Assembly (NCBI GenBank): GCA_964610465.1
Contig: CAZSWA010000004.1
Span: forward strand, 8,365-72,364
Reading direction: 5' to 3'
Length of the DNA stretch: 64,000 bases
From: an uncultured Gammaproteobacteria bacterium
Lineage (GTDB): Bacteria; Patescibacteriota; Microgenomatia; Levybacterales; UBA12049
Shown: positions 442 through 39,335 of the stretch, piece by piece
Layout of the letters: each line of letters opens with the position of its first letter
Numbering within the stretch: the first letter of the stretch is position 1
Notes under the pieces: generated by a model
Databases searched by the model: none
The model's input: the letters and a program-made list of their open reading frames with translations, nothing else
Told to the model about the DNA's origin: nothing
Made by a program: the position numbers and the translations under genes

Positions 442-981
442 CTAATCATTTACCGTTGCCACTGCGACAAAGCGCTTTGAATCAAGAAATCCAGTACAAG
501 TATAAAGCGTTACTCTTTTATCCTTTGAAGCATCAAGGATATGCGTTTGATCAGGGGTTATGATAGCGGTATATTGAATCGTAAAATCCCGGCTAGACCC
601 GTCGTTAAAACGAATTTTGATATGCTCTCCTGGATGAGTCCATTGCAAAGGTCCTAAAAGACTACTCCAGTTATGTCCATAAATTACACTGTTTCCTTTG
701 TCTCCAGGCAGAGGAGTAGCATCAAGATATGATACACCTTTATCGGTTAATCCCCATTCATTATTCTTGATTTTTGCTTGGAAAATCGGTAAGTCTACAT
801 GTACATCATCAATAATTAATTCTTCAGGCTGTAGTGTTGTTTTGGTTTTTGTAGTATCTAAATGTGCATTTTCGAAAGTGTATTTTTTGGGATTTACCCG
901 CAGCCAATAAATATAGGTTCCAAAAAGAAGGCAAAACAGTCCAAAAAGTATAAGCAGGTTTCCTAATATTCTCGTAGACAT
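442..981 (-). CDS. Sortase (transpeptidase), N-terminal TM anchor
   Basis: TLxTC-type active site 'VTLYTCTG', conserved His in 'VIYGHNW', Arg near C-terminus; N-terminal hydrophobic anchor; adjacent to a LANTG-terminated substrate gene. Confidence 0.75.
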   Translation of the reverse strand: MSTRILGNLLILFGLFCLLFGTYIYWLRVNPKKYTFENAHLDTTKTKTTLQPEELIIDDVHVDLPIFQAKIKNNEWGLTDKGVSYLDATPLPGDKGNSVIYGHNWSSLLGPLQWTHPGEHIKIRFNDGSSRDFTIQYTAIITPDQTHILDASKDKRVTLYTCTGFLDSKRFVAVATVND

Positions 982-989: not shown

Positions 990-1613
990 CTATTTAGTGT
1001 TTCTTTTAAGAAACAACCCGGCAATTACGGAGAATAACCCGGCAAGAACTACCCCATACAAAAAGATGATATTCCCTGTATTGGCAAGACCTAAAACAGA
1101 TTGTACCGGAGAAGAGCTGTTATTACTCGTTGTATTGTTTGAGGTATTGTTGGTCGTATTATTGGTTGTGTTGTTTGTGGTGTTATTGATAGTATTGTTG
1201 GTGGTCGTATTGCAGGCAAAATTTGAATTTTGTGCTGCATATCTGTCGTCTGATAATCCCCATGCTGAGCCGCTTGGAATATCATACCAACCCTGACTCT
1301 GTAATACCTTTACATCATCGTCTGACAGTTGTGCTACATTCCACCAATTGGTTTGAATACCTTGACCGTTTGGAGGACAAAAACATTGCATATACATGTT
1401 GTTTTCTGACAACTCATATACCATATCACTGCCTTGTACGGTATTTTCATATCCTGGAATTCCATGGTCACCTTGTGTATAACTTACTTTAAGTGTTCCT
1501 TGCGGATTAATACATGATGGGAATGACGGGGTGGTTACGGCAAATGCAGGTCTTGCGAAGACTGCAAAAAGGGGCAGGGTAATAATGATGGTAACTATCT
1601 GCCTGAATTTCAT
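990..1613 (-). CDS. Sortase-substrate surface protein: signal peptide, Cys-containing globular domain, Asn/Thr-rich stalk (NNTTNNT repeats), C-terminal LANTG + TM + KRNTK tail
   Basis: N-terminal signal peptide (AFA|VT); low-complexity N/T repeats; C-terminal 'LANTGN' followed by hydrophobic helix and basic tail = LPXTG-like cell-wall sorting signal. Confidence 0.7.
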   Translation of the reverse strand: MKFRQIVTIIITLPLFAVFARPAFAVTTPSFPSCINPQGTLKVSYTQGDHGIPGYENTVQGSDMVYELSENNMYMQCFCPPNGQGIQTNWWNVAQLSDDDVKVLQSQGWYDIPSGSAWGLSDDRYAAQNSNFACNTTTNNTINNTTNNTTNNTTNNTSNNTTSNNSSSPVQSVLGLANTGNIIFLYGVVLAGLFSVIAGLFLKRNTK

Positions 1614-1671: not shown

Positions 1672-2937
1672 TCAATAAGGTAATTGTAATAGATAACTTA
1701 TAGGAAAAAGTAATGTGCTTAGTTGATAGGTTATAAAAGACAGAACTGCACTAAATGGTGTAACTAATGTAATATGAAGATTAGTATCGGCTGACGAGAA
1801 ACGAATAGTTTTGAGCATATAGGAAGGTGCTGCAAAGGTAATTTGTATCCCGTCCTGAAGGTAAGGCAAAGAGAATCCACCATTACTATTGGTAATAGTA
1901 CCATAACGGTTACCTGCTTCTATATGTACATTTGCAATTGGAATATGTTGCGAATTTGTGACTATACCTTGCACGTAATCCGCTGAGTAAAATTTTGCAA
2001 GTGTCTTAACAGAAGGAGAAGCAATACCATTGCTATCCCAAATTTCAGTTGATCCTCCTGTACCTACCCAATAACTCACTCCTACCAAATCTTTTATTGA
2101 TGCGAGTTTTGAGAGCGCGAAACGTATCCATTGCTCCTGTTGATTTTTTGTCATACTTCCGTGGATATCAGGTATCGGTGCGCCAAATTCTCCCAGCACT
2201 ACTTTTCCGCCGCTTCTTTGGGCAAAATCTTTTATGTCATGTGCAAGTTGTTCAGGAGTTGCGACATAGTGATCAACCGTCACAATCCCATCGAGTTGTT
2301 TGGTGGTTTCAGGGTCCATTACCAGACGTGCAACATCTCCATTCATAGAAAAATAATTTGATTCCACATTCTTGTGTATTTCCTGAAATGCTAATTTCGT
2401 TACGTTATATTCTGTGATTAAAAAATTGCGATATCCTTTTACATCCTGAGTATTTCTGGGGTCACCTGGACCACCATTTTCACATTCGGGGCAGGAACTA
2501 AATATATCTCCATCCTCAAATATATCAGGGTTATTAAGAATAAAGTTAAGTGTTTTTTCTATATGCTGGTTTTGTGATATCTTAGGATAATCAAACCAAC
2601 CCTCCCATCCGGAAAAATTTCCCCGAAACCAGACGTGCAGGTGATATTTACGGGCAGCACTTACCCAACGTTTGAGTATCGGCAAAAATTCATCATCATA
2701 GGGAGTCCCTATAGCCACATGAGTTGCACCAGTATTGGCAATTTCCCGCACTTGAGTATCGATAGCTTTATCAAAAGACGAGTCATTGAGTTTCTCACGG
2801 CTTAAATCGCGGGAATATTTCATCGTATCTATTGATTCAAATTCCCATTGAGTATGCGTTTGTGCAAACGCACGAGGTACATGAAGACTAACCCATGCGA
2901 AAAAAATGAAACTTAGTATCACTATCAGTATTTTCAT
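1672..2937 (-). CDS. Secreted glycoside hydrolase-like protein (clan GH-A TIM-barrel-like, 'LGEFG' motif) with C-terminal carboxypeptidase-regulatory-like beta-sandwich
   Basis: Signal peptide; GEFG-type motif typical of GH5/GH26-like nucleophile region; C-terminal 'GTITNSNGGFSLP' CarboxypepD_reg-like segment. Family assignment uncertain. Confidence 0.4.
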   Translation of the reverse strand: MKILIVILSFIFFAWVSLHVPRAFAQTHTQWEFESIDTMKYSRDLSREKLNDSSFDKAIDTQVREIANTGATHVAIGTPYDDEFLPILKRWVSAARKYHLHVWFRGNFSGWEGWFDYPKISQNQHIEKTLNFILNNPDIFEDGDIFSSCPECENGGPGDPRNTQDVKGYRNFLITEYNVTKLAFQEIHKNVESNYFSMNGDVARLVMDPETTKQLDGIVTVDHYVATPEQLAHDIKDFAQRSGGKVVLGEFGAPIPDIHGSMTKNQQEQWIRFALSKLASIKDLVGVSYWVGTGGSTEIWDSNGIASPSVKTLAKFYSADYVQGIVTNSQHIPIANVHIEAGNRYGTITNSNGGFSLPYLQDGIQITFAAPSYMLKTIRFSSADTNLHITLVTPFSAVLSFITYQLSTLLFPISYLLQLPY

Positions 2938-2963: not shown

Positions 2964-4637
2964 CTACTTTTGCTGTGCTAGAACAGGTTTTGTATGAAGA
3001 TCTGATAAATATTGAGGTTTTATTTCATAGATATCAGCAAAAGGGAAATGATGAATAAGTATGTATTTGTTCATTGCCGGGTTTGTATGAATAAGTTTAA
3101 ATGTCAAATCATTTGTATCGTGAGTTCTCATAATTATCCACCTTGCCCATCTGTCAGGATGTGCTGTTGCATAATCCCAATATAATCCTGTCCCCTCATG
3201 AATAAATTTACTCATAGGAAGACCTGATGAGAAAATTATAGCATCATGTGAAGCAACTGAGATAAGGATAAAACCATCTTGATTCGTTGCATGGTCACGT
3301 AACCATCCACTTACTTCCTTTACATTTTTACCACTTGATCCAACAAGCGCATCATCAATGGTAACCGCATCTCTTGCAGTAAAAGAGAAAAAGGTTACAA
3401 ATAGCAAAAGACCTATGAGAGCAAATCGTAATAATTTCAGTCTTTGCACGAGATATCCGATAAAAATCGCAAGAGATGGCAACATCATAAGTCCATAGCG
3501 GACATTAAACCATGACTTTCCTGAAATACCTTGCACATATAACACTGACTGACCCATATAGAGTGCCAAAACGTTAAAGAAAAATGGCGCTAAGAGAGCT
3601 GCCAAAGCGAGTTTAGTTTTTACCTTAATATTTTTGTCAAACCAAAGTATTACCGCTCCTGTTGCTCCCAAGAATAGAGTCAAAGCACCGGAATTATATA
3701 CAAGCGCATAGAGGTAAATAATAAGGGAAAGTAAAAAATTACCTTCCGTAGGAAGTGCACCTGCTCTTTTTAACTGTAGTTGCTGTTCACGAGCAGAATA
3801 AGGACCATTTATGAAATAAAGAGCATCCTTGAAAATCATCTGATTCCAAAGTAACCATAAAACAAGTCCAAAACCAGCAAGGGTCAGAAACAATACAAAA
3901 ATTCCTTCTGTTTTTTTATATCCATATTTTTTCCAGATGTATAATACCATGATGCAGGTGGAGAAAATTAAAAGAAACCATCCATCATAGCGTATAAGCG
4001 TTGAAAGCAATATCCAGAATCCGGCATAAATAAGATGAATAATTTGTTCGTTTTCATACCATACCAAAAGCTCATATACCCCAGCTGTCATAGTACCAAG
4101 CAACAAAAGCTCAGTCATGGCAGTTGATTGCATATAGAGAATATTAAGATTAGCTGCAAAGATAAATACGCCTGCAAGTCTTCCAATCATTCCCACACGT
4201 AAATGCTTTAAGAAAAGATACACAATAAGCCCGGTACCAATATAGGCAAGCATTGATTGTAATGCTCCTGCAAGCCCTGAGTGCCACATGAAATCATTCC
4301 ATACAGTTGCTATCATCAGAATATGAGGAAGAGGTAACCAGACACTTCCAAGCTGTGCAACACCAGGTTTAAGATTTTCAACTACACGTCTGGCAATATC
4401 TAAATGCGAACGGGCATCATTGTATGCAATACCAAGACCATTTTGATAAAACACAAAGAAGCTTGCTGCAGATATCAGAGAAAGAATTATTCCAAGCAAT
4501 AGAAGTGCTTTTTTTTCAAACCAATCCTGTATCCTGTTTAGAGTTGCAAACTGTAAAGTAAAACCTATTGATAGTGATTTAAGACTAAAACGCATAATTA
4601 TTTTCCTTTCTTGAAAGCGAAATCTTAGATATAACAA
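2964..4637 (-). CDS. Polytopic membrane glycosyltransferase, GT-C fold (PMT/ArnT-like, family 39/83-like) with C-terminal extracytoplasmic domain
   Basis: >10 predicted TM helices followed by ~150-aa soluble C-terminal domain; overlaps upstream paralog by ~50 nt (true start may be internal Met 'MRFSLKS' ~4595). Confidence 0.45.
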   Translation of the reverse strand: MLYLRFRFQERKIIMRFSLKSLSIGFTLQFATLNRIQDWFEKKALLLLGIILSLISAASFFVFYQNGLGIAYNDARSHLDIARRVVENLKPGVAQLGSVWLPLPHILMIATVWNDFMWHSGLAGALQSMLAYIGTGLIVYLFLKHLRVGMIGRLAGVFIFAANLNILYMQSTAMTELLLLGTMTAGVYELLVWYENEQIIHLIYAGFWILLSTLIRYDGWFLLIFSTCIMVLYIWKKYGYKKTEGIFVLFLTLAGFGLVLWLLWNQMIFKDALYFINGPYSAREQQLQLKRAGALPTEGNFLLSLIIYLYALVYNSGALTLFLGATGAVILWFDKNIKVKTKLALAALLAPFFFNVLALYMGQSVLYVQGISGKSWFNVRYGLMMLPSLAIFIGYLVQRLKLLRFALIGLLLFVTFFSFTARDAVTIDDALVGSSGKNVKEVSGWLRDHATNQDGFILISVASHDAIIFSSGLPMSKFIHEGTGLYWDYATAHPDRWARWIIMRTHDTNDLTFKLIHTNPAMNKYILIHHFPFADIYEIKPQYLSDLHTKPVLAQQK

Positions 4638-6186
4638 GAAGCACTGAGGTAAAAATGATAATAGAAAATATTATATCAAGATAATAATCCCACGCAGAAA
4701 TGAAATGTTTTGCAAAAGTCGTATAGATAAATGCCTTTGAGCCTTGCGTATTTAAATAATTAAAATTGCGAACATAGGTATAGTCTTGTTTTACTCCTGA
4801 GATTTTTTCAAGTGCTTGTGCTTCTATCATCGGAGGATTATTGCTTGTAGTAAGTGCACCTAATGTGTTAACTGCAGTAGAATAACTGAAAAGCATGAGA
4901 AATAATAAAAGAAAAATATTTTTCCGTCCAAAGCGGGTCAGATATATTGCAATAAAGATAGAAAGTATTGCATAAGAAGGAATTAAATAACGTGCGCCAA
5001 AGGCCCATCCCCCCCAGGGGTCACCCCACATTGCATAAAGGAGTATATTAATACCTATAACTGCTACAAAAAGTGATAAATAAGGAATTCTTCTCCTATA
5101 GGCAATAATCAAACCTATTACACCCAAAATCATAATTGGAGTAAAAATAAGTGTTCCTCTATCAGGACTGATAAATAATACAAAGAAACCATTTAAGAGA
5201 TATCTTGGGTTAAAAAATGTTATGGCATTTATTTCGTTGTTTTTTGGAGAAGTATTGGAGTTTGTGTTACCGGTTTTTGTAATTTTTGCTGCTGCTTCAA
5301 TGTTTAATTTGTTTATCTGTTTATTATTCACTGTCTGTATTTTTTCAACTCTTGGTAACGAACCGGATAACTGCAGAGGATTACCAAATGACATGAAGTT
5401 AAACCACAAGAGGAAAAGTACAGGGATAATTGCCGAAACAGCATTAAAAAGTCTTCCAAAATGAAGCTCTACATCCATAGATTTTCTACGTATTTTATAA
5501 GAGACAATCCCGAAAAGTGTATACAAACCAATAGGAAGTATCATAAATAAGTTTGAATAGTCTATGACAATTGATGTACCACAAAGAAACCATACCAGCA
5601 TATAGGAGAAAAAGTTTTTGTAACGGATAAGACAATAAATACTCAGAAGAATAAGAAAGGTTGAGATATGATGTTGATAAAAATCAACCGCATATGCATA
5701 TGCAGGAGTCGCAAAAAGAAAGGTAAGCCCGGCAATTGCTGACGCCAATTTATTTGCACCTAAACGTATTGCAATTGCCATAATAAGAAGCATATTCACA
5801 AGAGCAAATAATGCTATCATTGCAAATGTTCCTACTTGTGAGATTCCAAGTATTTTACCAACAAGATATCCTGGCATTCCTATAAATGACACACCAGGTG
5901 CAAAAAGTGATACATAGTGATTGTGAATAATAGCAAGATCTGGAGTTGCAAATTGCGCAACCGGAAGAGAAAATTGAAATGAATGGTCCTCGAGTACTGA
6001 GTAAAGTAAAGCAAATCTTCCACTCTGTTCAAACGGTCCATTTTCACGCCAGGAAGATGAGTTAAAGTTGTTACTTGTCGGATTTCCAGCAATACCACGT
6101 ATACTTAGCATTAAGATAACTGCGGTAAAAATAATGCAAAGCATTGGAAGAGAAATTTGTTGTAAGAAACGGAATACTGTTTTCAT
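4585..6186 (-). CDS. Polytopic membrane glycosyltransferase, GT-C fold (PMT/ArnT-like), paralog of previous
   Basis: Multi-TM N-terminal two-thirds, C-terminal soluble domain; architecture of dolichyl/undecaprenyl-phosphate-sugar dependent GT-C enzymes. Confidence 0.45.
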   Translation of the reverse strand: MKTVFRFLQQISLPMLCIIFTAVILMLSIRGIAGNPTSNNFNSSSWRENGPFEQSGRFALLYSVLEDHSFQFSLPVAQFATPDLAIIHNHYVSLFAPGVSFIGMPGYLVGKILGISQVGTFAMIALFALVNMLLIMAIAIRLGANKLASAIAGLTFLFATPAYAYAVDFYQHHISTFLILLSIYCLIRYKNFFSYMLVWFLCGTSIVIDYSNLFMILPIGLYTLFGIVSYKIRRKSMDVELHFGRLFNAVSAIIPVLFLLWFNFMSFGNPLQLSGSLPRVEKIQTVNNKQINKLNIEAAAKITKTGNTNSNTSPKNNEINAITFFNPRYLLNGFFVLFISPDRGTLIFTPIMILGVIGLIIAYRRRIPYLSLFVAVIGINILLYAMWGDPWGGWAFGARYLIPSYAILSIFIAIYLTRFGRKNIFLLLFLMLFSYSTAVNTLGALTTSNNPPMIEAQALEKISGVKQDYTYVRNFNYLNTQGSKAFIYTTFAKHFISAWDYYLDIIFSIIIFTSVLLVISKISLSRKENNYAF

Positions 6187-6192: not shown

Positions 6193-7134
6193 CTATTTGA
6201 ATGCAATTTCTTTTTGTGATATCCCTTTTTTTGTAGATTCTATAAGCTTCCATACTCCTTCTTTCTCAAAAGAGTTTTGTTTTTTCGGAAAAAGCTTCAT
6301 AAATGAGAAAAAAGCCCCTCCTCCAAAAAGAGAAACCGGATCCCTTACTACCATTTTTGCAAGTGCTCTTACTTTATATTGGAACGGAATCGTATATTCA
6401 TTTATTATATTTTCTCCAAACATTTTCATAAGGAGCACTCGCTCTCCATTTGTCCTATTCACTTGCAAAAAATAGTCATGGACATTATCAGGAGAACGAA
6501 AAAGCACTACTGCATCTTTGGCGAAATGGAAAGACAGCCCGTTTTTTTTAGCTGAGAAATAAAGATATTGTGATTCTGATGTAATTTTTTTAGGAATTCT
6601 TATTTTTTTTACTAGAGAACCACGTATTGCCATAATACAACCTCTTATATTATGAATATGATTTCCATTATTAACATCCTTCCGGGTTTCATACCACACT
6701 CTGGTCCATGTATTAATAAATTCTTCAACTGTTGTTTTTGCCTTAACAGGTAGATTATTCCCACCTACTATTCCTACAGATTCATCAAAATTTTTGATAA
6801 GGTTATCAATTACATATTTTGATGCCGGAAGTATATCAGCATCAAAACTAACCAGAAAGTCACTTTTATTCAATGCATAAAGCTGATTTAAGCGATAGGC
6901 TTTCCCACGTCTCTTTTTATCATCAATTATAGTTATTAGTTTGTTTTTCTGTGCTATTTCCTTTACTCTCACAACGGTATTATCGGTACAACCATCACAT
7001 ATCACAATAATGTTCTTAAGTACGTAATATCTCTGATTTTGCTTAAGTATTTCTGTAAGCAAGTTTTTAATATTGTTTTCTTCATTACAGGCAGGTATAC
7101 CTACTGTTACTGTTGGTTTTTTTAAAGATTTCAT
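6193..7134 (-). CDS. Glycosyltransferase family 2 (GT-A fold)
   Basis: N-terminal 'VGIPACNEE' ... 'DGCTDNT' ... 'FDADILP' DxD motif. Confidence 0.8.
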   Translation of the reverse strand: MKSLKKPTVTVGIPACNEENNIKNLLTEILKQNQRYYVLKNIIVICDGCTDNTVVRVKEIAQKNKLITIIDDKKRRGKAYRLNQLYALNKSDFLVSFDADILPASKYVIDNLIKNFDESVGIVGGNNLPVKAKTTVEEFINTWTRVWYETRKDVNNGNHIHNIRGCIMAIRGSLVKKIRIPKKITSESQYLYFSAKKNGLSFHFAKDAVVLFRSPDNVHDYFLQVNRTNGERVLLMKMFGENIINEYTIPFQYKVRALAKMVVRDPVSLFGGGAFFSFMKLFPKKQNSFEKEGVWKLIESTKKGISQKEIAFK

Positions 7135-7182: not shown

Positions 7183-8991
7183 TTATTCCAGCGCGATTCT
7201 CTTGGTAGATGAAGCTACTGTCCATCTGCTATCTATTGCTTTGTTTCTTGCTATTCTCGTCTTGATAAGTATATAAAGATAGGCACTAAAATATATAGGG
7301 TTCATAATAAAGAATTTAATAAGTGCCTTAAGCACTAAATAGGTAGGTAACACATATTCTGTTTCATCCAAAGGAACGAATTTACGCAGTTCCTGCTTTG
7401 ATGATTGAAACCGGGTAGACTGGAGAAGATGATCATGAAAAGATACTGGAGATTTATAATATACTTTCAGTTTAGGTAAATAGCGTGGCATAAAATTATA
7501 TGAGCGTGCGAGAAAGTAGAAATATGTATCATTATTAACCAATGTTTCAGGCAGTACAATTTTCCTTGCGAAATTGCCATCTAATCCAAGAAAAACTCCC
7601 CGAAAGGCTAAGTAATTACATCCCTTTTTCCATTTTCTCCTTACATCCATTTGTAACCGAACATTATAATTTACGCATTTCTCAAAAAATGATGAGCCGC
7701 TAAGTGGTACTGCTTCAACAGAAATTAGTCCATCTCTTTCAAGATGAGATTGTTTTAAAATTGACTCGAAAAGATGGGTATCTTTAATCATGGTATCTGC
7801 ATCGATAATAAAAAGCACATCTCCTTTAAAACGTGAGAAAATCTGATTGAGGCGTGTTGATTTTCCTTTTCTTTCTTTTTCAGCAATAAGAGTAATACGT
7901 GACTCTTTTATTTCCCTGGCCTTTTCAATAGTTTTATCTGAACTTCCATCAGAAACAACAATAATTTCTTTAAGAAAAAAATTATTTTCTTCCTGATGCA
8001 AAACTGATTGGATAATACGCTTAATATTTTTTTCTTCATTATAAGCAGGTATCCCTACTGATATGGAAATGTTTGTTTTATAAGAGTGGGAAAGTATTTT
8101 TGTTGAAGGTGTTGTTGCCCAAAGATCAGAAAAGTTCTTATTCGTTATTCTACTTTCTACTTTCCATTTCATTAACATGTAAAATATAAATAGAATTGGA
8201 TGAGATATAAAGAATTGCAGAGAGATTGTAAAAATAAGATGTTTCGGTCTTTCATAAACTTTTTCTATAAATTCTTTTGGAAAATAAGAAAGTAATGTGT
8301 TTTTAGCTGAAAAGATTTTTTGTCTTTCTTTTATCAGATCTTCAAGATTATGAGGAGCACGATAGTAACAAACGGCAGAAGTCTGGACAGTCGTTTTGAT
8401 ATTATTTTGTCTACACCATAAAAGAGCATACGAATCTTCCGGAACAGATATGGGCCACACAAGTTTTTTATATACAAGTTTACTAAACGCTCTTCCACTT
8501 CTTCCCGTACAAAATACATTCCGTGTTATAGGATTTTTGAATGTGCACTCTCTATAAATGTTACCCTGTATGGAAATTGCTTTTTCAAATATATTGCGGG
8601 GGGAAAGAGGTGTCTTGTTACCTTGTACCATTCCAATTTTGTTATTTTTTGCTATTGGCTTAAGAAGCTCGTCGATAAAAAGATTATTTACAGGCATGGT
8701 ATCTGCTTCAAAGAGTACGACTACATCAGTATCTGCCATCTTAAAAATTTTATTTTGAGCAGAAATTTGACCCTTTCGCTTTTTATTTCTAATTAAGGTA
8801 ATTTTTGAATTTTTTAAATCGAGAATATTTCTGTCTGTATTATCAGTGCTTGCATCAGACACGACAATAATTTGTTTTATGATAAAATATGTCTCTTTTT
8901 GTGACAAAATTTTATTAAGAAGATATATAATATTATGCTCTTCGTTGTAGGCAGGAATGCCAATTGTTACGGTAAGTTTTTTATTTTTCAT
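7183..8991 (-). CDS. Tandem double GT2 glycosyltransferase (two GT-A domains in one polypeptide)
   Basis: Two copies of the 'IGIPAYNEE(H/K)NI' ... 'SD(A/G)STD' ... 'DAD' GT2 signature at residues ~8 and ~310. Confidence 0.75.
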   Translation of the reverse strand: MKNKKLTVTIGIPAYNEEHNIIYLLNKILSQKETYFIIKQIIVVSDASTDNTDRNILDLKNSKITLIRNKKRKGQISAQNKIFKMADTDVVVLFEADTMPVNNLFIDELLKPIAKNNKIGMVQGNKTPLSPRNIFEKAISIQGNIYRECTFKNPITRNVFCTGRSGRAFSKLVYKKLVWPISVPEDSYALLWCRQNNIKTTVQTSAVCYYRAPHNLEDLIKERQKIFSAKNTLLSYFPKEFIEKVYERPKHLIFTISLQFFISHPILFIFYMLMKWKVESRITNKNFSDLWATTPSTKILSHSYKTNISISVGIPAYNEEKNIKRIIQSVLHQEENNFFLKEIIVVSDGSSDKTIEKAREIKESRITLIAEKERKGKSTRLNQIFSRFKGDVLFIIDADTMIKDTHLFESILKQSHLERDGLISVEAVPLSGSSFFEKCVNYNVRLQMDVRRKWKKGCNYLAFRGVFLGLDGNFARKIVLPETLVNNDTYFYFLARSYNFMPRYLPKLKVYYKSPVSFHDHLLQSTRFQSSKQELRKFVPLDETEYVLPTYLVLKALIKFFIMNPIYFSAYLYILIKTRIARNKAIDSRWTVASSTKRIALE

Positions 8992-9815
8992 ATAGCGTTT
9001 TGTGTTACCTTTCGCAGTATCTTTCTCATATAAATACCTGATGTCAAAAATGCTGCTTTAAATTCTATAAAACTGTGCGTCCCATCAACTCCCACCCGCG
9101 GAACGAGAAGCGGATTCGTTGATAGAGTAATAAGCTCATCCACTAAAGATAATCCCATTTTAAACCCCGCTTTCTTCACCGCTCTTTGCGCAGGTAGTGA
9201 AAAATAACCCTTCGGATAGGCAAAATAATTAATTTTGCAGTTAAGTTCTTTTTCAAGTTTCTTTTTTGATTGTACTATCTCATAATCAATATCTTTCTGA
9301 GAAATATGTAGGAGATTGGCATGAGTAGCACTATGTGAACCAATTTCCCATCCTGACTTTTGAAGGGTAAGTACTTCTTTTTTTGAAAGAAGCGGTTTCA
9401 TATTATCAAGTTCCTTTCTATTAGGCTTTTGGCTATCTGCAAGTACAAAAAGTATTGGTCTAATACCTAGCTTTTTAAAGTAGTCCTTTGTTTCATACAC
9501 ATCTTTATATCCATCATCAAAAGTAATTACTACTGACTTTCTCTCTATTTTCTTTTGTCTATTTATATATTTATATACATCATCAAGACTTATAAAGTCG
9601 TAATGTTTTCTAAGGTATTCTATTTGAGCCTTAAGTACATCAAAGGGGACAGCAAAACGCCATCTATCCTTTGATATACTGTGATAACAAAGTATTACAA
9701 TTTTATTTTTGTTCGTCAAAATAAGCACTTTATCAAGTAAAAACATACTCGCATACAATGCTTTTCTGGCTTTAAAAAATAACATATTTCTTATAAAATT
9801 TCGTAGAGTACTCAT
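8988..9815 (-). CDS. Polysaccharide deacetylase (CE4, NodB homology domain)
   Basis: 'VVITFDDGYKD' ... 'ILFVLAD' ... 'GWEIGSHSATH' NodB motifs; 4-nt overlap with neighbours (operon). Confidence 0.7.
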   Translation of the reverse strand: MSTLRNFIRNMLFFKARKALYASMFLLDKVLILTNKNKIVILCYHSISKDRWRFAVPFDVLKAQIEYLRKHYDFISLDDVYKYINRQKKIERKSVVITFDDGYKDVYETKDYFKKLGIRPILFVLADSQKPNRKELDNMKPLLSKKEVLTLQKSGWEIGSHSATHANLLHISQKDIDYEIVQSKKKLEKELNCKINYFAYPKGYFSLPAQRAVKKAGFKMGLSLVDELITLSTNPLLVPRVGVDGTHSFIEFKAAFLTSGIYMRKILRKVTQNAI

Positions 9816-12800
9816 GCTTTCTCAGCCTCCATAAAGATAAGATTTTTGAGTAATTCCTGTTGAGCCTGTCCTCTTACTGTATTTTCTATAATGGTTGCAA
9901 ATAAGGTTGCACTTTCATCCCAATCAAAATTCTTCGACCAGACAAATGCATTTCTGGAAAGTGTTTGCAGGTAAAATGAGTCATTGATAAGAAACTGCAT
10001 CGCACTGGTAAAATCTTTAATACTATGAGGCTTGACCAAAATTCCTGTTTTTCCATCCAGTACTGAATCAGATAATCCATTTACTTTTGATGCAATTACC
10101 GGTGTACCTGAAGCATTCGCCTCAATTACCGTAATACCCCAACCTTCAACTTCAGACGGTTGTAAAACTGCCCAGCTTTCGGAAAGAAGTGATGCTTTTT
10201 TCTTTTCATTTACTTTTCCCAGGAAATTTACTTGTTTTTGTATACCCAATTTTTTTACCAGTCTGGTAAGGCTTTTTAATGAATCTCCTTCGCCTGCTAT
10301 GGTAAGTCGCGCAGCTGGAACTGTTTTAAGAAGAAGTGAGAAAGCATTTATAGCAATATCAATATTTTTATAGGGTTTAAGTCTTCCTAAGTAGGCAAAT
10401 GATGGGTAAGGTGTCTTTTGTCCTGGTGTAAATCGTTGAGAATTTATCCCGTTGTAGATTATCTGAATTTGTTGTGAACTTGAAAAGCCCAGTTTATAGA
10501 TTTCCTTTCTTGATGACTCAGACACTGTAATAATGCTTTTATTTTTATACAGAAATGGCATACACTTAGCTTCAAGAAATTCAGCAACCTGAGCCAGCGG
10601 AAATGACAGATACCTTCTAAATACTTCCTGATGCACATGATGCACTACAAGAAATACAGGTTTTTTTACATATAAAGGACTGAAAAAAGGAATTCCATTC
10701 TCACAATCTATTACCACATCAGTTTTTTGCTTGAAGAAAAGAAGGTAATAAATAAATGCCCATATATATACAGTATATGTACCGCCCCTACGGATAATCT
10801 TCACACCATCTATAATCTGATTTCGAGGATTTTCTCCATCATTTCCGCAAAATACAGTTACACTATTACCTTCTTTAACCCATCGTTTGGCAAGTTCGTG
10901 AATATATACTTCAGCTCCTCCAGCCCAGGTATGTTTGATATCTCGCCAATTAAGAATAAGAACTCCAAGCCTTTTGTCGTGTTTGGGTTTACCTGGCTGA
11001 CTTCCTTTAAAACTTAAAAGATCAGCAAGATTAACTTCTACTACTTTCACAAAACGATAGTTAAGGTGCAAAAGCAACATAATTGCCAGATTTAATATCC
11101 CGGTCCATACCATTGCATTGACAATTGCCTGTATATTTGTATGATTTATTTGGATAAGCACGAATTGTAATCCTATCAAAAGGAAAGATGATATAGTTGA
11201 GGTATATGATTTCAAAGAAAGATAGTAAGATACATATACCCGTGAGATAGTAAAACACATGATAGAAAAAGAAAAAAGAGTAATATAAGAAATGATAATT
11301 GCTGCCTTTCCACCAAAAATTATTGGAAGTGTTTGATAACCGAAGACACCAAATACCAGAAATCCAATAAAGCTTAAGGAAAACGTTGCAGCCAATAAGA
11401 TGTAGAGTGTTTTTGTAGAATCTTTTTTGCCTCCTTCATTGCGACTTACAAGTGGTATGACAAACTGAGTAGAAAGACCTCCTAAGAAAAATACCATTTT
11501 GCCAACTAGTGAAATAAGCGCATATTTCCCTGCATCCTCTGCGGATAGATAATGTTTTGCAAGCATAATATCTAAACTCATAAACGCTAAAGTAGAAAGA
11601 CCTGACAATATGGAAGCAAGGAAATAATTATTAGGAAACTTTTTTACTTCCTGCTCATATTCTTTTTTAAGAATCGGGACTTGTTTTCTGCCTACAAGCA
11701 AAAAACTGAGAACAAATGCTAAGACAAAAGAAAGCGGAATAGAAATATACACTAACTCCGGAAGATTCAATTTAACAAATACAAACGCACTAATAAATTT
11801 GATAAAAGGTTCAAAAATAGTAAGGAGTGCGAGAGTTCCAAACATAAATTTTCCATAGAGATAACCCTTATCAACTGAAAATGCAAATCCAATAATCCAT
11901 ACAAAAACAAAAATGACAAAAGGTATAATGCTGTCTGACTTAAAATATTTTACAAGAAACGGTGAGGCACATAACCATAATGCAGAGATTATCAACGCAA
12001 AGTAGAATGAATTTTTGCGAATATGTTTCCAGAAATAAAATGCTGATATTTCTCCGTATTGTCCATCTAAAAATGCGCTCTTATAATTTACCGTTGAGTT
12101 AAGTGCTGCAAAGGGAATATTAGAAATAAATAAAAGGCTTGAAATAAGACTTATGAAACCAAAGTCAGCCAAATCTACTTCCTTGCCAACATATAAATTG
12201 AAGGCGAGATTGAGAACATTTGCTCCAAAACTTGCGACAACAAGAATTCCAGCTGAAAAAAGACCATTTTTAACTGCATTCTTAAAATTCAATTTTTGAT
12301 ATATTCCTGAAAAATCAGGGATAACTGAAGGAACTGGACGTGGCGGCATAAATGGTTTTTGTTGTTCTTTGAGTTTTGATTGCTGAGTCCTTTTTATTTC
12401 CGGTTTTGTCTTAAGATGAAGTCCATGTACTGTTTTCTCCCAATAATGAGGTTTAAAAAGCAGCTGTTGTATCGCAACAAGCGCCGCAATACTCATAAGA
12501 AGCCAATAGAACGGGATAAGTAGTGAATATTTCACCAGTGACCATTGATTTCTTTTGGCACAGCCAATCATGTAGTAATAAAGAAAAAGAAAATTTCCAA
12601 AGACAAAGGCAAAAATTGCCAGATAAAAATAAGGAACAAGGTACAGCGATTCAATGGTTGGTCCAAATATAGGATAAAATCCAAAATACAAAATAGTAAC
12701 AAGCCATAAGAAAGGATTTATCAGAAGAAACGCGAGCTTTCCACCTACAGTCATTTGGAAAATAAGCTCGTGATGCAACCCTTTTTTCCTGATAAATGTC

Positions 12801-14638
12801 CAGGAATTTCTCATATTCACAAGGTACGTCTGCATATAGCCTTTTATCCAGCGTGAACGCTGTCTTAACCAATTAGGAACTTTACTATTCGCTTCCTCAA
12901 GAGTGGTAGAGTCAATAACTGCCGTTTTATACCCTTGCTGGAATAAGCGGGTACCCAAATCCGCATCTTCTGTTACATTAAAAGGATCCCAACCTTGAAG
13001 TTCACGAAGATTTTTTGTTTTGAAATGATTACTTGTCCCGCCAAGAGGTAAGGCAGAATTAAGCGATTGAAGTCCTGTAAGCGTCAAATCAAACCACAAT
13101 GAGTATTCAGCGGTAAAAAAACGGGTAAGGAGATTCTGAGTTGGATTGTAGTAATTGAGCTTTGCCTGCATGCATTTCACATCACCTGGTGCCTTCTGGA
13201 AAGCAATATAGGCTTTCTTAAGTTGAAGTGGATCAGGCATGTCTTCTGCATCATAAATTACAAGATAATCACCTTTGGCAATTGCCAAACCATAATTACA
13301 GGCTTTAGGTTTTGTCTTTGGAGCTGAATTAGGTACTATTACTTTTCTAAAGTAGAAAGGTAATTTCATCTTCTTTATCGTATCTATGGTTTCAATATCA
13401 TCTTCTTCAAGAAGGAGTATTACATCAAGCTTGTTTTTAGGCCAGTCCAGCCTTGAGATAGCTTCAATAAATTGAGGTACTACATGTGCTTCTTTATACA
13501 AAGGACAAAGTATAGAGTAGATAGGAAGTGCAATTTCTGCAATCTCTGCAATTTCCTTATCCTCAAATATAATTTCAGCTGGTTTTCGAAGGCTCCGTAA
13601 GACAACGAATAAGTTAAAAACCGTATCAATAAAATAAATGATACTTAAGACTGAAACAACAATTCGAAGTGTATCAAGTGTATCTGCAATGAACCCTGCA
13701 ATAACTGTAAGAATAATCGTCAGAAGTCCAAGCTGCTGCCAGAAGTTCATTGTTTGAAGCGCAGAAAGATGAAGAGGCAGTGTAGTATGAGTAATATATT
13801 TCTTTTTTTTATAGCCAATACCTGCTCCTTGCATTGAGCTGTATTGTTTAGGTGGCACAATCATAGGAGGCATTTTTTTCATTTTGAGTCGCATAGCATT
13901 TGTTCCTATTTCAAGTGAACTTCTTGTGACGGACACCTTTGAATCCCCATATGCACGCGGAGCAAATACGATATCATAATTAGCAAGGGTAAAACCGGCT
14001 TGACGAGCCCTATGGAGAAATTCAAGATCAAAAGTCCACGCAGATGTAGGCTTAAATTTTATCGTTTCATATACCTCTTTTGTAAATACTTTAAGACCCG
14101 CTTGAATATCATTGGTTAATCCAAACATCATCTTTCCAAAGAGATAACGGAATGCTCTACTGACTGTTCTTCGCACAAATGATTCTTTATTCTTCTCTCT
14201 ATTCGCAACAACCACATCACTTTCTTTTAGCATTTTTACCATGGGGAGAATAGCATTTGGAGGATACTGTAAATCACCATCAATCATAACGAGGATATTG
14301 CCTGTGGCTTTCTGAAATCCTTCAATAAGAGAGTATGCTTTGCCTTTTCTACCTATTTTTCTGTACACTCTGACAAATTTGAGTTTTTGCAGTTTCTTAA
14401 GAATGCTAAACGTTCCATCTGTTGAGTAATCATCAACATAAATTATTTCAAATTGTTTTCCAGTCTTATTAAGCGTCTTTACCAGTTCTTTATGTAAAGA
14501 TTTAATATTATCAGCCTCATTATACAAAGGCACAATAACGCTTATACTTTGGTTTTTTGTGAACACAGTTCTCATCTTTCTCTGTTTCAGGCAGGAATTA
14601 GTGAAGTCTACGATAGTTCTTAATTGGGGAGTATTCAT
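9812..14638 (-). CDS. Giant 1608-aa fusion: GT2 (DPM1-like) + TM + processive GT2 (D,D,D,QRSRW) + MOP/Wzx-like polysaccharide flippase TM domain + C-terminal GT4 (GT-B)
   Basis: 'VIVPLYNEADNI...YVDDYSTDGT...DGDLQYPP'; second GT2 'ILCPLYKEAHV...YDAEDMP...TEDADLG...QRSRWIKG'; ~14 TM flippase-like block; C-terminal 'EGWGITVIEANASGTPVIAS' GT4 motif; uninterrupted ORF. Confidence 0.75.
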   Translation of the reverse strand: MNTPQLRTIVDFTNSCLKQRKMRTVFTKNQSISVIVPLYNEADNIKSLHKELVKTLNKTGKQFEIIYVDDYSTDGTFSILKKLQKLKFVRVYRKIGRKGKAYSLIEGFQKATGNILVMIDGDLQYPPNAILPMVKMLKESDVVVANREKNKESFVRRTVSRAFRYLFGKMMFGLTNDIQAGLKVFTKEVYETIKFKPTSAWTFDLEFLHRARQAGFTLANYDIVFAPRAYGDSKVSVTRSSLEIGTNAMRLKMKKMPPMIVPPKQYSSMQGAGIGYKKKKYITHTTLPLHLSALQTMNFWQQLGLLTIILTVIAGFIADTLDTLRIVVSVLSIIYFIDTVFNLFVVLRSLRKPAEIIFEDKEIAEIAEIALPIYSILCPLYKEAHVVPQFIEAISRLDWPKNKLDVILLLEEDDIETIDTIKKMKLPFYFRKVIVPNSAPKTKPKACNYGLAIAKGDYLVIYDAEDMPDPLQLKKAYIAFQKAPGDVKCMQAKLNYYNPTQNLLTRFFTAEYSLWFDLTLTGLQSLNSALPLGGTSNHFKTKNLRELQGWDPFNVTEDADLGTRLFQQGYKTAVIDSTTLEEANSKVPNWLRQRSRWIKGYMQTYLVNMRNSWTFIRKKGLHHELIFQMTVGGKLAFLLINPFLWLVTILYFGFYPIFGPTIESLYLVPYFYLAIFAFVFGNFLFLYYYMIGCAKRNQWSLVKYSLLIPFYWLLMSIAALVAIQQLLFKPHYWEKTVHGLHLKTKPEIKRTQQSKLKEQQKPFMPPRPVPSVIPDFSGIYQKLNFKNAVKNGLFSAGILVVASFGANVLNLAFNLYVGKEVDLADFGFISLISSLLFISNIPFAALNSTVNYKSAFLDGQYGEISAFYFWKHIRKNSFYFALIISALWLCASPFLVKYFKSDSIIPFVIFVFVWIIGFAFSVDKGYLYGKFMFGTLALLTIFEPFIKFISAFVFVKLNLPELVYISIPLSFVLAFVLSFLLVGRKQVPILKKEYEQEVKKFPNNYFLASILSGLSTLAFMSLDIMLAKHYLSAEDAGKYALISLVGKMVFFLGGLSTQFVIPLVSRNEGGKKDSTKTLYILLAATFSLSFIGFLVFGVFGYQTLPIIFGGKAAIIISYITLFSFSIMCFTISRVYVSYYLSLKSYTSTISSFLLIGLQFVLIQINHTNIQAIVNAMVWTGILNLAIMLLLHLNYRFVKVVEVNLADLLSFKGSQPGKPKHDKRLGVLILNWRDIKHTWAGGAEVYIHELAKRWVKEGNSVTVFCGNDGENPRNQIIDGVKIIRRGGTYTVYIWAFIYYLLFFKQKTDVVIDCENGIPFFSPLYVKKPVFLVVHHVHQEVFRRYLSFPLAQVAEFLEAKCMPFLYKNKSIITVSESSRKEIYKLGFSSSQQIQIIYNGINSQRFTPGQKTPYPSFAYLGRLKPYKNIDIAINAFSLLLKTVPAARLTIAGEGDSLKSLTRLVKKLGIQKQVNFLGKVNEKKKASLLSESWAVLQPSEVEGWGITVIEANASGTPVIASKVNGLSDSVLDGKTGILVKPHSIKDFTSAMQFLINDSFYLQTLSRNAFVWSKNFDWDESATLFATIIENTVRGQAQQELLKNLIFMEAEKA

Positions 14639-39213: not shown

Positions 39214-39296
39214 CCAGAAAGAACGTGGATAGAATACGTCAAACTCATTGTCACAGAGAGCGATGTGAGACTTAAATGTTGATGTCCGACTAAGAC

Positions 39297-39325: not shown

Positions 39326-39335
39326 AACATTATAT

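What the first reader, a model, noticed from the sequence alone, without database searches (positions are those of the whole stretch)
9812..14638. 1608-aa single-ORF fusion of GT2 + processive GT2 (QRSRW) + MOP flippase + GT4
Four normally separate polysaccharide-synthesis functions are fused in one uninterrupted reading frame. Domain signatures are intact: DxD motifs, D...QRSRW, ~14 TM helices, and the EGWG...GTPVIAS GT4 motif. A synthase-flippase-GT megaprotein would channel a lipid-linked glycan from priming to export. It is unusual and may be a genome-reduction-driven fusion.
Basis: seen in the sequence. Interest (0 to 1): 0.65.

Follow-up and report, generated by a model that had tools for sequence, protein, structure and literature searches.

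The report
Four-enzyme glycan-assembly megaprotein in Patescibacteria
A real, widely conserved 1608-residue membrane protein of candidate-phyla-radiation bacteria joins a lipid-carrier sugar-loading enzyme, a cellulose-synthase-like enzyme, a Wzx-type flippase and a GT4 glycosyltransferase, and it seems to work with unannotated outer-face transferases encoded just downstream to build a cell-surface glycan.

Summary
Window 9812-14638 (minus strand) is one uninterrupted 1608-aa ORF. An independent assembly reproduces it exactly, and more than 115 full-length orthologues (49-56% identity) exist in Microgenomates-type Patescibacteria, so it is not an artefact.

All four domain calls are supported, with refinements:
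- **GT2 #1** is a DPMS/GtrB/ArnC-type polyprenyl-phosphate sugar synthase (DxDxQ motif).
- **GT2 #2** is a BcsA/HAS-like membrane synthase (DD, DAED, TED, QRSRW).
- **The central block** has a 12-TM MOP/Wzx fold. The window copy itself gives no Pfam hit; the call rests on orthologues and a structure model.
- **The C-terminus** is a GT4 with an EX7E motif.

The protein is not self-contained. It heads a conserved cluster that includes a Pfam-less family, shown here to have a GT-C fold. That family is the most constant partner of GT2 #2 and is fused to it in Chloroflexota.

Fused, split and domain-shuffled forms coexist. They indicate two modules, GT2a+GT2b and MOP+GT4.

The closest mechanistic precedents are the streptococcal/lactococcal GacI/J-K-L and WpsA/B-G-J systems. 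I rate this a new variant of a known kind, of moderate interest. Sugar specificity, acceptor and step order are inferred, not shown.

The parts
9812..14638 (-). Whole 1608-aa megaprotein ORF (GT2a-GT2b-MOP-GT4), first gene of the cluster
13853..14566 (-). GT2a (aa 25-262): DPMS/GtrB/ArnC-like polyprenyl-phosphate sugar synthase domain, D120-G-D122-L-Q124
   Evidence: PF00535; PDB DPMS 5mlz 1.2e-21, ArnC 1.2e-16, GtrB 2.5e-16; NCBIfam PgfS 2e-28, below cut-off; residues invariant in 40 orthologues
12404..13810 (-). GT2b (aa 277-745): BcsA/HAS-like membrane-embedded synthase-type GT2. N-terminal TM hairpin (about 303-344), catalytic domain with EEDD 411, KPKACN 443, DAED 463, TED 556, QRSRW 593, then C-terminal TM/interface helices (629-723) and the conserved PHYWEKTxHG tail
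12293..12403 (-). Lys/Pro-rich, poorly conserved linker (aa 746-782). It is the junction where split genomes have a gene boundary, and it contains no hydrophobic segment
10994..12292 (-). MOP-superfamily (Wzx/PST-like) flippase domain (aa 783-1215), 12 TM helices plus a C-terminal helix
   Evidence: No Pfam hit for the window copy; 6/15 orthologous domains hit PF01943 and 4/15 hit PF13440; AF2 pLDDT 87, pTM 0.86; Foldseek top 50 hits all MATE/MurJ/WzxE
9815..10972 (-). GT4 (GT-B fold) glycosyltransferase domain (aa 1223-1608), EX7E at 1498-1506
   Evidence: PF13439 + PF00534; PDB MshA 2e-18, TarM, PimA; NCBIfam Agl16 9e-33, below cut-off
8988..9815 (-). Polysaccharide deacetylase (PF01522); its start overlaps the megaprotein stop by 4 nt
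   Evidence: present in 14 related loci; fused to unk533 in L031
7183..8991 (-). 602-aa tandem GT2-GT2 protein; present as two separate genes of about 300 aa in other genomes
6193..7134 (-). 313-aa soluble GT2
4585..6186 (-). unk533: polytopic membrane protein, probably a GT-C-like transferase (unproven); co-varies with the MOP module
   Evidence: about 9 hydrophobic segments; NCBIfam LA_3751/3752 putative glycosyltransferase 1.7e-9, below cut-off; hhalign against unk557 inconclusive; co-occurrence with MOP
2964..4637 (-). unk557 (likely start Met15, nt 4595): Pfam-less GT-C-fold membrane glycosyltransferase with an invariant YNDARSH motif in the first external loop; the most constant partner of GT2b
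1672..2937 (-). unk421: secreted protein with an unidentified domain, a CarboxypepD_reg domain and a C-terminal TM; conserved in 25 loci; function unresolved
990..1613 (-). unk207: signal peptide + conserved Cys-containing domain + Asn/Thr-rich stalk + LANTG sorting signal; candidate sortase substrate and possible glycan acceptor
442..981 (-). Sortase (PF04203) following unk207

Best explanation
The ORF is a genuine, conserved multi-enzyme membrane protein of Microgenomates-type Patescibacteria. It fuses two functional modules of a polyprenyl-phosphate-based cell-surface glycan pathway.

Module 1 is GT2a+GT2b. GT2a is a DPMS/GtrB/GacI-type enzyme that loads a sugar onto undecaprenyl (polyprenyl) monophosphate at the inner face of the membrane. 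GT2b is a BcsA/HAS-like membrane synthase that most likely extends a beta-linked chain, possibly on that lipid primer. In genomes that lack the flippase it probably also gets the chain across the membrane.

Module 2 is MOP+GT4. The GT4, helped by the small soluble GT2s and the deacetylase encoded downstream, elaborates a lipid-linked unit, and the Wzx-type MOP domain flips it outward.

Outside the cell, the GT-C-fold protein unk557 and the probably related unk533, both encoded downstream, transfer the lipid-linked glycans onto the final acceptor. That acceptor could be a wall polymer or the Ser/Thr/Asn-rich sortase-anchored protein encoded at the end of the cluster.

Shown: the ORF is real, the domain and fold assignments hold, the catalytic motifs are conserved, and the components are linked by synteny and by a network of fusions. 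Inferred: the lipid carrier, the order of steps, processivity and export by GT2b, the sugars and the acceptor.
For: The ORF is real: identical product in an independent assembly; more than 115 full-length orthologues; the same architecture in many GTDB species. GT2a: nearest solved relatives are DPMS, ArnC and GtrB, sharing the D(A/G)DLQxPP motif, and D120/D122/Q124 are invariant; DxDxQ is described as the hallmark of polyisoprenyl-phosphate GT2s (PMC10821137). GT2b: the profile hits E. coli BcsA at 5.5e-22, Rhodobacter BcsA at 1e-12 and HAS1 at 1.4e-6, and the residue alignment runs through KAxN, DxD, TED and QxxRW into the TM helices. MOP. GT4. unk557 has a GT-C fold: the top 42 Foldseek hits are STT3, ALG12, ArnT, DPY19, AftA, AglB, PglB and PMT, and an acidic motif in the first external loop is invariant. 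Linkage: GT2b and unk557 occur together in 45 of 60 loci; MOP with GT4 in 27 of 29 MOP-containing loci; MOP with unk533 in 23 of 29 (Fisher p about 1e-4). Rosetta-stone fusions verified as single ORFs: GT2b-unk557, GT2a-like-unk557, deacetylase-unk533, MOP-GT4-GT2. Among 150 representatives of the MOP family, 35 are MOP+GT4, 13 are MOP plus a small GT2, 12 are GT2b+MOP+GT4 and 9 are the four-module form. Experimental precedent for GT2 (C55-P-sugar synthase) + cytoplasmic GTs + Wzx flippase + GT-C transferases: the Gac and Wps systems and Pgf/GtrB-PgtC.
Against: There are no biochemical data for any member. No module reaches a curated NCBIfam cut-off, so the placements are at superfamily level. 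The window's own MOP domain has no direct sequence-family hit. The AF2 models rest on shallow alignments (15 and 34 sequences), and the unk557 TM-scores are only about 0.5 with a low-confidence first external loop. unk533 is not established as GT-C. GT2b seems to have only about 4 TM helices, fewer than BcsA or HAS, so self-export is uncertain, and the membrane topology is inferred, not modelled. The co-occurrence statistics are not corrected for phylogeny, and tblastn may miss divergent MOP copies. No priming phosphoglycosyltransferase and no GacJ/WpsB-like activator was found in the window. The promoter and terminator scans were uninformative.
Confidence: 0.6

Rival explanations
1. One reading: a self-contained linear assembly line. 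All four domains act in series on one lipid-linked glycan. GT2a primes, GT2b (NodC-like, acting at the cytoplasmic face) and GT4 extend, and the MOP domain then exports that single product. The downstream GT-C proteins would only carry out the final transfer.
For: The domain order GT2a-GT2b-MOP-GT4 is the same in every four-domain orthologue. GT2b has few TM helices, and the deacetylase has no clear signal peptide, which resembles the NodC/NodB pair acting in the cytoplasm. The linker is cytoplasmic by charge.
Against: GT2a+GT2b+unk557 triads and GT2b-unk557 fusions exist with no MOP or GT4 nearby, so the GT2b product must reach the outside without this flippase. GT2a+GT2b+GT4 ORFs of about 1160-1200 aa have no room for a flippase. 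MOP+GT4 is a common stand-alone protein. GT2b aligns with the export-competent synthases BcsA and HAS through their TM region.
Confidence: 0.25
2. GT2b is not a processive polymer synthase but a single-addition lipid glycosyltransferase, like GT21 ceramide glucosyltransferase or glycosyl-diacylglycerol synthases. On this reading the protein makes membrane glycolipids rather than a polymer.
For: Pfam PF13506 (GT21) hit at 3.9e-8. QxxRW also occurs in non-processive lipid GT2s (established knowledge). Only about 4 TM helices. Fusion to a lipid-donor-using GT-C enzyme.
Against: The best matches by a wide margin are CelA, PgaC, BcsA and HAS. The alignment with BcsA covers the acceptor-binding region and TM5-6. 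A co-conserved PF01522 deacetylase parallels the PgaC/PgaB, IcaA/IcaB and NodC/NodB pairs.
Confidence: 0.1
3. The single ORF is an assembly or frameshift artefact that joins separate genes.
For: Split versions of the same genes exist in some related genomes.
Against: An independent Logan assembly of SRR12266077 (contig seen in 6 samples) carries the identical 1608-aa product. More than 115 orthologues at 49-56% identity from NCBI, JGI, ENA and Logan are full length with the same domain order. Conservation continues across all junctions. The split forms have real spacers, promoter-like boxes and their own start codons.
Confidence: 0.01
4. The MOP domain is a MurJ-type lipid II (peptidoglycan) flippase or a MATE-type exporter that happens to be fused to glycosyltransferases, rather than a Wzx-type glycan flippase.
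For: By Foldseek E-value, MATE and MurJ rank as high as WzxE. No sequence family is detected in the window copy.
Against: Orthologous domains hit the Polysacc_synt families PF01943 and PF13440. The domain has 12 TM helices like Wzx, not 14 like MurJ. The highest target-normalised TM-score is to WzxE (0.73). The domain is systematically fused to GT4 or GT2 domains.
Confidence: 0.04

Closest known systems
Four-component extracytoplasmic glycosylation systems: S. pyogenes GacI/GacJ-GacK-GacL and L. lactis/cremoris WpsA/WpsB-WpsC..F-WpsG-WpsH/I/J (PMC10821137)
   Same: [quoted passage not shown] All component classes are present in this cluster.
   Different: Here the GT2, flippase and a GT4 are one polypeptide, and a BcsA-like synthase, absent from Gac/Wps, is inserted between them. 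No GacJ/WpsB-like activator was found; the GT2b TM hairpin may anchor GT2a instead. The GT-C proteins belong to Pfam-less families. No activity data exist.
S. mutans Pgf and streptococcal GtrB/PgtC protein O-glycosylation (PMC5856776, PMC12041528)
   Same: GT2a's best NCBIfam match is PgfS. Two GT-C-type membrane proteins are encoded nearby. A sortase-anchored surface protein with a Ser/Thr/Asn-rich stalk lies in the same cluster, like the Thr-rich LPXTG adhesins Cnm and WapA.
   Different: The PgfS score (99.5 bits) is far below the curated cut-off of 500. Pgf has no synthase-like GT2, MOP domain or GT4. Glycosylation of unk207 is pure inference.
Membrane-integrated processive GT2 synthases: BcsA, hyaluronan synthase, PgaC/IcaA, NodC
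   Same: GT2b shares the DD, DxD, TED and QxxRW motifs and the layout of TM helices flanking the catalytic domain. An adjacent PF01522 deacetylase parallels PgaB, IcaB and NodB.
   Different: Scores are far below the CelA and PgaC cut-offs (62 against 699; 56 against 422). There is no PilZ domain. It has apparently only about 4 TM helices. Its constant partner is a GT-C enzyme, which no characterised synthase system has.
Three-component Gtr (GtrA/GtrB/GtrC) and CsbB/GtcA/YfhO systems (PMC7389260)
   Same: The same logic: Und-P-sugar synthase, then flippase, then GT-C transferase.
   Different: The flippase there is a small GtrA/GtcA-family protein, not a 12-TM MOP transporter, and nothing is fused.
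Archaeal Agl N-glycosylation (AglJ, AglR, AglS/AglB, Agl16); comparison partly from my own knowledge
   Same: There are NCBIfam hits to AglJ for GT2a (4.9e-14) and Agl16 for GT4 (9e-33). Both use a monophosphate-linked carrier, a Wzx-like flippase and GT-C transferases. STT3 and AglB are among the top fold matches of unk557.
   Different: All hits are far below the cut-offs. unk557 lacks a conserved WWDYG motif: the family consensus is YWxxA, so it is not an oligosaccharyltransferase by that criterion.

Membership tests
Polyprenyl-phosphate glycosyltransferases of GT2 (DPM1/DPMS, GtrB, ArnC, GacI/WpsA, PgfS): GT2a | GT-A catalytic domain (PF00535) whose closest solved relatives are DPMS, ArnC and GtrB | tested here: met
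   (5mlz 1.2e-21, 9hwj 1.2e-16, 5ekp 2.5e-16)
Polyprenyl-phosphate glycosyltransferases of GT2: GT2a | Extended DxDxQ metal/diphosphate-binding motif (PMC10821137) | tested here: met
   D120-G-D122-L-Q124 aligns with DADLQ of DPMS, ArnC and GtrB and is invariant in 40 orthologues (that alignment's numbering is 1 lower)
Polyprenyl-phosphate glycosyltransferases of GT2: GT2a | Own C-terminal TM helices (GtrB, DPMS, ArnC) or a small membrane activator (GacJ/WpsB) | tested here: inconclusive
   GT2a has no TM helix of its own. The TM hairpin at 303-344 belongs to the GT2b module, because stand-alone GT2b proteins include it. No GacJ-like gene was seen, but none was searched for specifically.
Polyprenyl-phosphate glycosyltransferases of GT2: GT2a | Curated equivalog score (PgfS, ArnC, AglJ, PpgS) | tested here: not met
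   PgfS 99.5 bits against a cut-off of 500; ArnC 74 against 529. Superfamily-level placement only.
Polyprenyl-phosphate glycosyltransferases of GT2: GT2a | Transfer of a sugar to C55-P or Dol-P | not testable with these tools
   Needs a membrane assay with labelled nucleotide sugars
Processive membrane-integrated GT2 synthases (BcsA/HAS/PgaC/NodC): GT2b | D, DxD, TED, QxxRW catalytic motifs | tested here: met
   EEDD 411, DAED 463, TED 556, QRSRW 593; aligned to BcsA; invariant in orthologues
Processive membrane-integrated GT2 synthases: GT2b | Catalytic domain flanked by TM helices that form a translocation channel (6-8 TM in HAS and BcsA) | tested here: inconclusive
Processive membrane-integrated GT2 synthases: GT2b | Curated equivalog score for CelA or PgaC | tested here: not met
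   CelA 62 bits against 699; PgaC 56 against 422
MOP superfamily, PST/Wzx family: central domain | Sequence match to PF01943, PF13440 or PF14667 | tested here: inconclusive
   The window copy has no hit at E<=10. Six of 15 orthologous domains hit PF01943 (best 8.8e-10) and four of 15 hit PF13440 (best 3.8e-15).
MOP superfamily, PST/Wzx family: central domain | MOP fold, 12 TM helices in two six-helix lobes | tested here: met
   AF2 pLDDT 87, pTM 0.86; the top 50 Foldseek hits are all MATE, MurJ or WzxE, TM 0.62-0.73
MOP superfamily, PST/Wzx family: central domain | Flipping of a lipid-linked glycan | not testable with these tools
   Needs complementation or a flippase assay
GT4 (GT-B fold, retaining): C-terminal domain | PF13439 + PF00534 domains and the EX7E motif | tested here: met
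   EGWGITVIE at 1498; PDB MshA, TarM, PimA
GT-C fold glycosyltransferases: unk557 (window 2964-4637) | GT-C fold: polytopic N-terminal membrane domain plus an extracytoplasmic C-terminal domain | tested here: met
   AF2 pLDDT 76.7, pTM 0.75; the top 42 Foldseek PDB hits are all GT-C enzymes, E down to 1.7e-6, TM about 0.5-0.6
GT-C fold glycosyltransferases: unk557 | Conserved acidic residue or motif in the first extracytoplasmic loop | tested here: met
   Y58-N-D60-A-R-S-H64 is invariant in 34 sequences. The loop is modelled at low confidence.
GT-C fold glycosyltransferases: unk557 | Match to a described GT-C sequence family (PMT, PMT_2, STT3, YfhO, ArnT ...) | tested here: not met
   No Pfam or NCBIfam hit, even at E<=10; 120 relatives carry no Pfam annotation
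Oligosaccharyltransferases (STT3/AglB/PglB): unk557 | WWDYG motif in the C-terminal domain | tested here: not met
   The window has YWDYA, but the family consensus is YWxxA and the Asp is not conserved

The most novel reading that the evidence does not exclude
The conserved core (GtrB-like GT2a + BcsA-like GT2b + the Pfam-less GT-C unk557) could be a so-far undescribed type of glycan pathway. In it, a synthase-type GT2 elongates and exports a polyprenyl-monophosphate-primed chain, and a dedicated GT-C 'ligase' transfers the chain onto the wall or onto a sortase-anchored glycoprotein. The fused MOP+GT4 module with unk533 would add a Wzx-dependent side branch. This would be the main envelope glycopolymer or glycoprotein machinery of Microgenomates, and a related version would exist in Chloroflexota, Dormibacterota and some Firmicutes.
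Probability: 0.2. Interest if true: 0.75.

Novelty: new variant of a known kind. Interest (0 to 1): 0.5.

Why it matters
Candidate-phyla-radiation bacteria are uncultured, and their envelopes are almost uncharacterised. This protein and its cluster give a testable blueprint for how one large CPR lineage builds a surface glycan.

Natural fusions also act as 'Rosetta stones'. Here they tie five enzyme classes into one pathway: a lipid-carrier sugar synthase, a cellulose-synthase-like enzyme, a Wzx flippase, a GT4 and two unannotated membrane-protein families.

Three results could be used straight away:
- The large 'hypothetical protein' family unk557 (thousands of members, no Pfam model) is identified as GT-C fold.
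- That family is linked to a BcsA-like synthase across four phyla.
- The single-chain flippase-glycosyltransferase is an attractive target for structural work on how lipid-linked intermediates are handed from enzyme to flippase.

Tried and rejected
- **Pfam and NCBIfam on the window's central block, unk557 and unk533:** nothing, even at E<=10, apart from one weak NCBIfam hit for unk533.
- **Profile of the central block against PDB sequences:** only spurious orexin-receptor hits, caused by TM composition. Rejected.
- **unk533 against unk557 by hhalign:** probability 16%. The unk533 profile against PDB found nothing, and its 120 relatives carry no annotation. The GT-C status of unk533 is left open.
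- **unk421 profile against PDB:** no significant hit. The idea that it is the pathway's glycoside hydrolase is not supported. The GEFG-like motif is only a recollection of GH5 enzymes.
- **OST hypothesis for unk557:** rejected, because the WWDYG-like Asp is not conserved.
- **Promoter and terminator scan:** fewer sites than in shuffled sequence, so uninformative. The operon structure is inferred only from overlapping or tightly spaced genes.
- **GC-rich 38-44 kb stretch as an rRNA operon:** rejected. There are no Rfam hits and no 16S primer site.
- **Literature searches for this fusion:** nothing specific. The JGI label 'XagB' led only to Xanthomonas biofilm papers.

Full report
**Observation.** The ORF listing returns one uninterrupted ORF at 9812..14638 on the minus strand (ATG start, 1608 aa).
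- DGDLQ at 120
- DAED at 463
- TED at 556
- QRSRW at 593
- EGWGITVIE (an EX7E motif) at 1498
- GTPVIAS at 1511

Pfam places PF00535 at 33-182, PF13641/PF13632 at 374-684, and PF13439 plus PF00534 at 1240-1564, all far above their gathering scores.

The one claim that sequence signatures do not support is the flippase. The window's residues ~742-1230 have no Pfam hit and residues ~783-1215 no NCBIfam hit, even at E<=10 for Pfam.

**Not an artefact.** Three lines of evidence rule this out.
- The identical 1608-aa product, with the same neighbours, is on record in an independently produced Logan assembly of run SRR12266077. That contig was seen in 6 samples.
- A search of 5.8 billion proteins returned 120 listed hits. 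All but two (1424 and 1440 aa) are 1533-1922 aa long, at 49-56% identity and about 97% coverage. They come from NCBI, JGI, ENA and Logan, and the named ones are Levybacteria, Curtissbacteria or Patescibacteria.
- In a 40-sequence alignment, conservation runs through all domains. Only the Lys/Pro-rich linker (aa 746-782) and the central membrane block are variable.

**Domain by domain.**

*GT2a (aa ~25-262).* Its nearest solved relatives are all polyprenyl-phosphate sugar synthases: dolichol-phosphate mannose synthase (1.2e-21), ArnC (1.2e-16) and GtrB (2.5e-16). The residue alignments share the D(A/G)DLQxPP signature. D120, D122 and Q124 are invariant in orthologues (that alignment lacks Met1, so its numbers are one lower). 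PMC10821137 describes DxDxQ as the hallmark of polyisoprenyl-phosphate GT2 enzymes. The best NCBIfam match is PgfS, but it is far below the cut-off.

*GT2b (aa ~277-745).* A profile built from stand-alone and fused copies hits E. coli BcsA at 5.5e-22, Rhodobacter BcsA at 1e-12 and hyaluronan synthase at 1.4e-6. The pairwise alignment with BcsA runs through KAxN, the DxD equivalent, TED and QxxRW, and continues into two TM helices. GT2b is therefore synthase-like. Processivity is inferred.

*Central block.* Six of 15 orthologous domains hit PF01943, and four hit PF13440. An AF2 model (pLDDT 87, pTM 0.86) shows 12 TM helices plus a terminal helix. All 50 top Foldseek matches are MOP transporters, including MurJ and the lipid III flippase WzxE (TM up to 0.73).

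*C-terminus.* This is an ordinary GT4. It matches MshA, TarM and PimA.

**The parts occur separately, in many combinations.** I scanned one genome per GTDB species and resolved 80 loci to ORF level. The forms found were:

| Form | Where |
|---|---|
| Four-domain ORF | Woese-, Ames-, Gottesman-, Davies-, Roizman-, Levy- and Dojkabacteria |
| GT2b+MOP+GT4 | several Patescibacteria loci |
| GT2a+GT2b and MOP+GT4 as adjacent genes | several Patescibacteria loci |
| GT2a+GT2b+GT4 ORFs of ~1160-1200 aa, too short to hold a flippase | several Patescibacteria loci |
| GT2a+GT2b followed only by unk557 | several Patescibacteria loci |
| Separate GT2b, GT2a and unk557 genes | Paenibacillus, Clostridium, Desulforamulus |
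| GT2b alone, or fused to unk557 | Chloroflexota |

The split forms are real genes. They have 35-268-nt spacers, TATAAT-like boxes and their own start codons.

An exhaustive HMMER search with the window's flippase domain found 2279 relatives. Among the 150 best representatives, 75 show no other module, 35 are MOP+GT4, 13 are MOP plus a small GT2, 12 are GT2b+MOP+GT4 and 9 are four-domain.

**The neighbourhood changes the interpretation.** The megaprotein gene follows a 345-bp gap and heads a tightly packed same-strand run of genes:
1. PF01522 deacetylase (4-nt overlap with the megaprotein gene)
2. a tandem GT2-GT2 protein
3. a small GT2
4. unk533
5. unk557
6. unk421
7. unk207
8. a sortase

unk557 has no Pfam or NCBIfam hit, and its relatives are annotated as 'hypothetical protein'. 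Its AF2 model (pLDDT 76.7) nevertheless matches only GT-C enzymes in the top 42 Foldseek hits: STT3, ALG12, ArnT, DPY19, AftA, AglB, PglB and PMT. It also carries an invariant YNDARSH motif in the first external loop. It lacks a conserved WWDYG motif, so it is not an oligosaccharyltransferase by that criterion.

In the 60 loci with enough flanking sequence:
- unk557 accompanies GT2b in 45.
- MOP goes with GT4 in 27 of 29 MOP-containing loci.
- MOP goes with unk533 in 23 of 29 (Fisher p about 1e-4, not corrected for phylogeny).

Several fusions were verified as single ORFs:
- GT2b-unk557 (Chloroflexota)
- GT2a-like-unk557 (Ca. Nephthysia)
- deacetylase-unk533
- MOP-GT4-GT2

unk207 and its relatives have a signal peptide, a conserved Cys-containing domain, a Ser/Thr/Gly/Asn-rich stalk and an LAxTG/LPxTG sorting signal.

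**Most likely mechanism.** The protein joins two modules of a polyprenyl-phosphate-based surface-glycan pathway.
- *Module 1.* GT2a loads a sugar on the lipid monophosphate. GT2b extends a beta-linked chain and probably exports it where no flippase is present.
- *Module 2.* GT4, with the neighbouring soluble GT2s and the deacetylase, elaborates a lipid-linked unit, and the Wzx-type domain flips it.
- *Outside the cell.* The GT-C enzyme unk557, and probably unk533, transfer the glycans to the final acceptor.

The folds, motifs, synteny and fusions are shown. The carrier, step order, sugars, export by GT2b and the acceptor are inferred.

Topology is also inferred. The linkers in the MOP fusion and in the GT-C fusion both lack any hydrophobic segment, and both partner families canonically start in the cytoplasm. 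Residues 705-723 are flanked by positively charged loops on both sides. This suggests two C-terminal TM helices plus an interface helix, with a cytoplasmic end.

**Comparison with known systems.** The closest functional precedents are the 'four-component' systems GacI/J-GacK-GacL and WpsA/B-WpsC..F-WpsG-WpsH/I/J. In those, a DPMS-like GT2 makes GlcNAc-P-C55, cytoplasmic GTs elongate it, a Wzx-type flippase exports it, and GT-C enzymes polymerise or attach it (PMC10821137). The Pgf and GtrB/PgtC protein O-glycosylation systems are also close (PMC12041528, PMC5856776).

This case differs in four ways:
- Three of those components and an extra GT4 sit in one polypeptide.
- A BcsA-like synthase is inserted, and its constant partner is a GT-C enzyme. 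I found no characterised system with that pairing.
- There is no GacJ/WpsB-type activator.
- The GT-C proteins belong to undescribed families.

None of the modules reaches an equivalog cut-off, so membership is at superfamily level only.

**Novelty and verdict.** Four literature searches found no description of this fusion, although the proteins sit in public databases labelled 'glycosyltransferase'. Every domain belongs to a known superfamily, and the logic is that of known lipid-carrier glycosylation systems. I therefore rate it a new variant of a known kind, with interest 0.5. It is a solid lead for CPR envelope biology and a useful Rosetta stone, rather than a categorical surprise.

The idea that genome reduction drove the fusion has no support.

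**Caveats.**
- The AF2 alignments are shallow.
- unk557 TM-scores are about 0.5.
- unk533 and unk421 are unresolved.
- The co-occurrence counts are not phylogenetically independent.
- The promoter and terminator scans were uninformative.
- Two fold libraries were unavailable.

Noticed in passing
window 990-1613 (-) and 442-981 (-); also L009, L010, L012, L013, L020, L025, L026, L029, L034, L041: A conserved small secreted protein family: signal peptide, a Cys-containing domain of about 120 aa (FPSC..QCFC..GIQTNWWK..WGL), a Ser/Thr/Gly/Asn-rich stalk (the window copy has 14 N-x-S/T sequons), an LAxTG/LPxTG sorting signal, a TM segment and a basic tail. A sortase gene usually follows it. It is a candidate glycosylated surface protein.
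   Followed up: partly
window 2964-4637 (-): unk557 belongs to a very large 'hypothetical protein' family (4928 hits at E<=1e-3; the top 120 are 61-67% identical) with no Pfam or NCBIfam model. Structure prediction shows a GT-C fold. The family deserves a family model.
   Followed up: yes
window 7183-8991 (-): The 602-aa neighbour is itself a tandem fusion of two GT2 domains. In other genomes (for example L001, L004, L045) these are two adjacent genes of about 300 aa.
   Followed up: partly
window about 37700-43600: A GC-rich island (0.46-0.50 against about 0.33 elsewhere) with short, fragmented ORFs. It is not an rRNA operon: there are no Rfam hits at gathering score or at E<=0.001, and no 16S 515F site. 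It contains a PIN-domain ORF (40488-40955) and several ORFs with no family. It may be foreign or mobile DNA.
   Followed up: partly
window 50752-63925 (-): A purine-biosynthesis operon (PurL-like, GATase_5, PurH, adenylosuccinate lyase, PurK, SAICAR synthetase, AIRS) that includes two paralogous DUF1246/DUF1297 genes (56803-57897 and 59450-60463). These are the archaeal PurP-type domains.
   Followed up: no
window 27927-29870 (+): Another fusion protein: an HAD hydrolase domain, a D-2-hydroxyacid dehydrogenase and an ACT domain in 647 aa. It looks like a phosphoserine-phosphatase/phosphoglycerate-dehydrogenase (SerB-SerA-like) fusion.
   Followed up: no
window 14984-16027 (-), 16654-17214 (-), 45963-46952 (-): A Fic-domain protein with a C-terminal winged-helix region lies directly upstream of the megaprotein gene. 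A second sortase and a second PF01522 deacetylase lie elsewhere in the window.
   Followed up: no
loci L001-L003, L007, L012, L019, L020, L022, L024-L026 and others: Many TPA metagenome bins that carry this clearly Patescibacteria-type cluster are titled 'uncultured Gammaproteobacteria', 'Bdellovibrionales' or 'Pseudomonadales'. The record taxonomy looks unreliable.
   Followed up: no
L031:1314-4757; L066:9272-12589; L034:10300-13695: Further single-ORF fusions among cluster components: deacetylase-unk533 (1148 aa), GT2a-like-unk557 (1106 aa, Ca. Nephthysia) and MOP-GT4-GT2 (1132 aa).
   Followed up: yes
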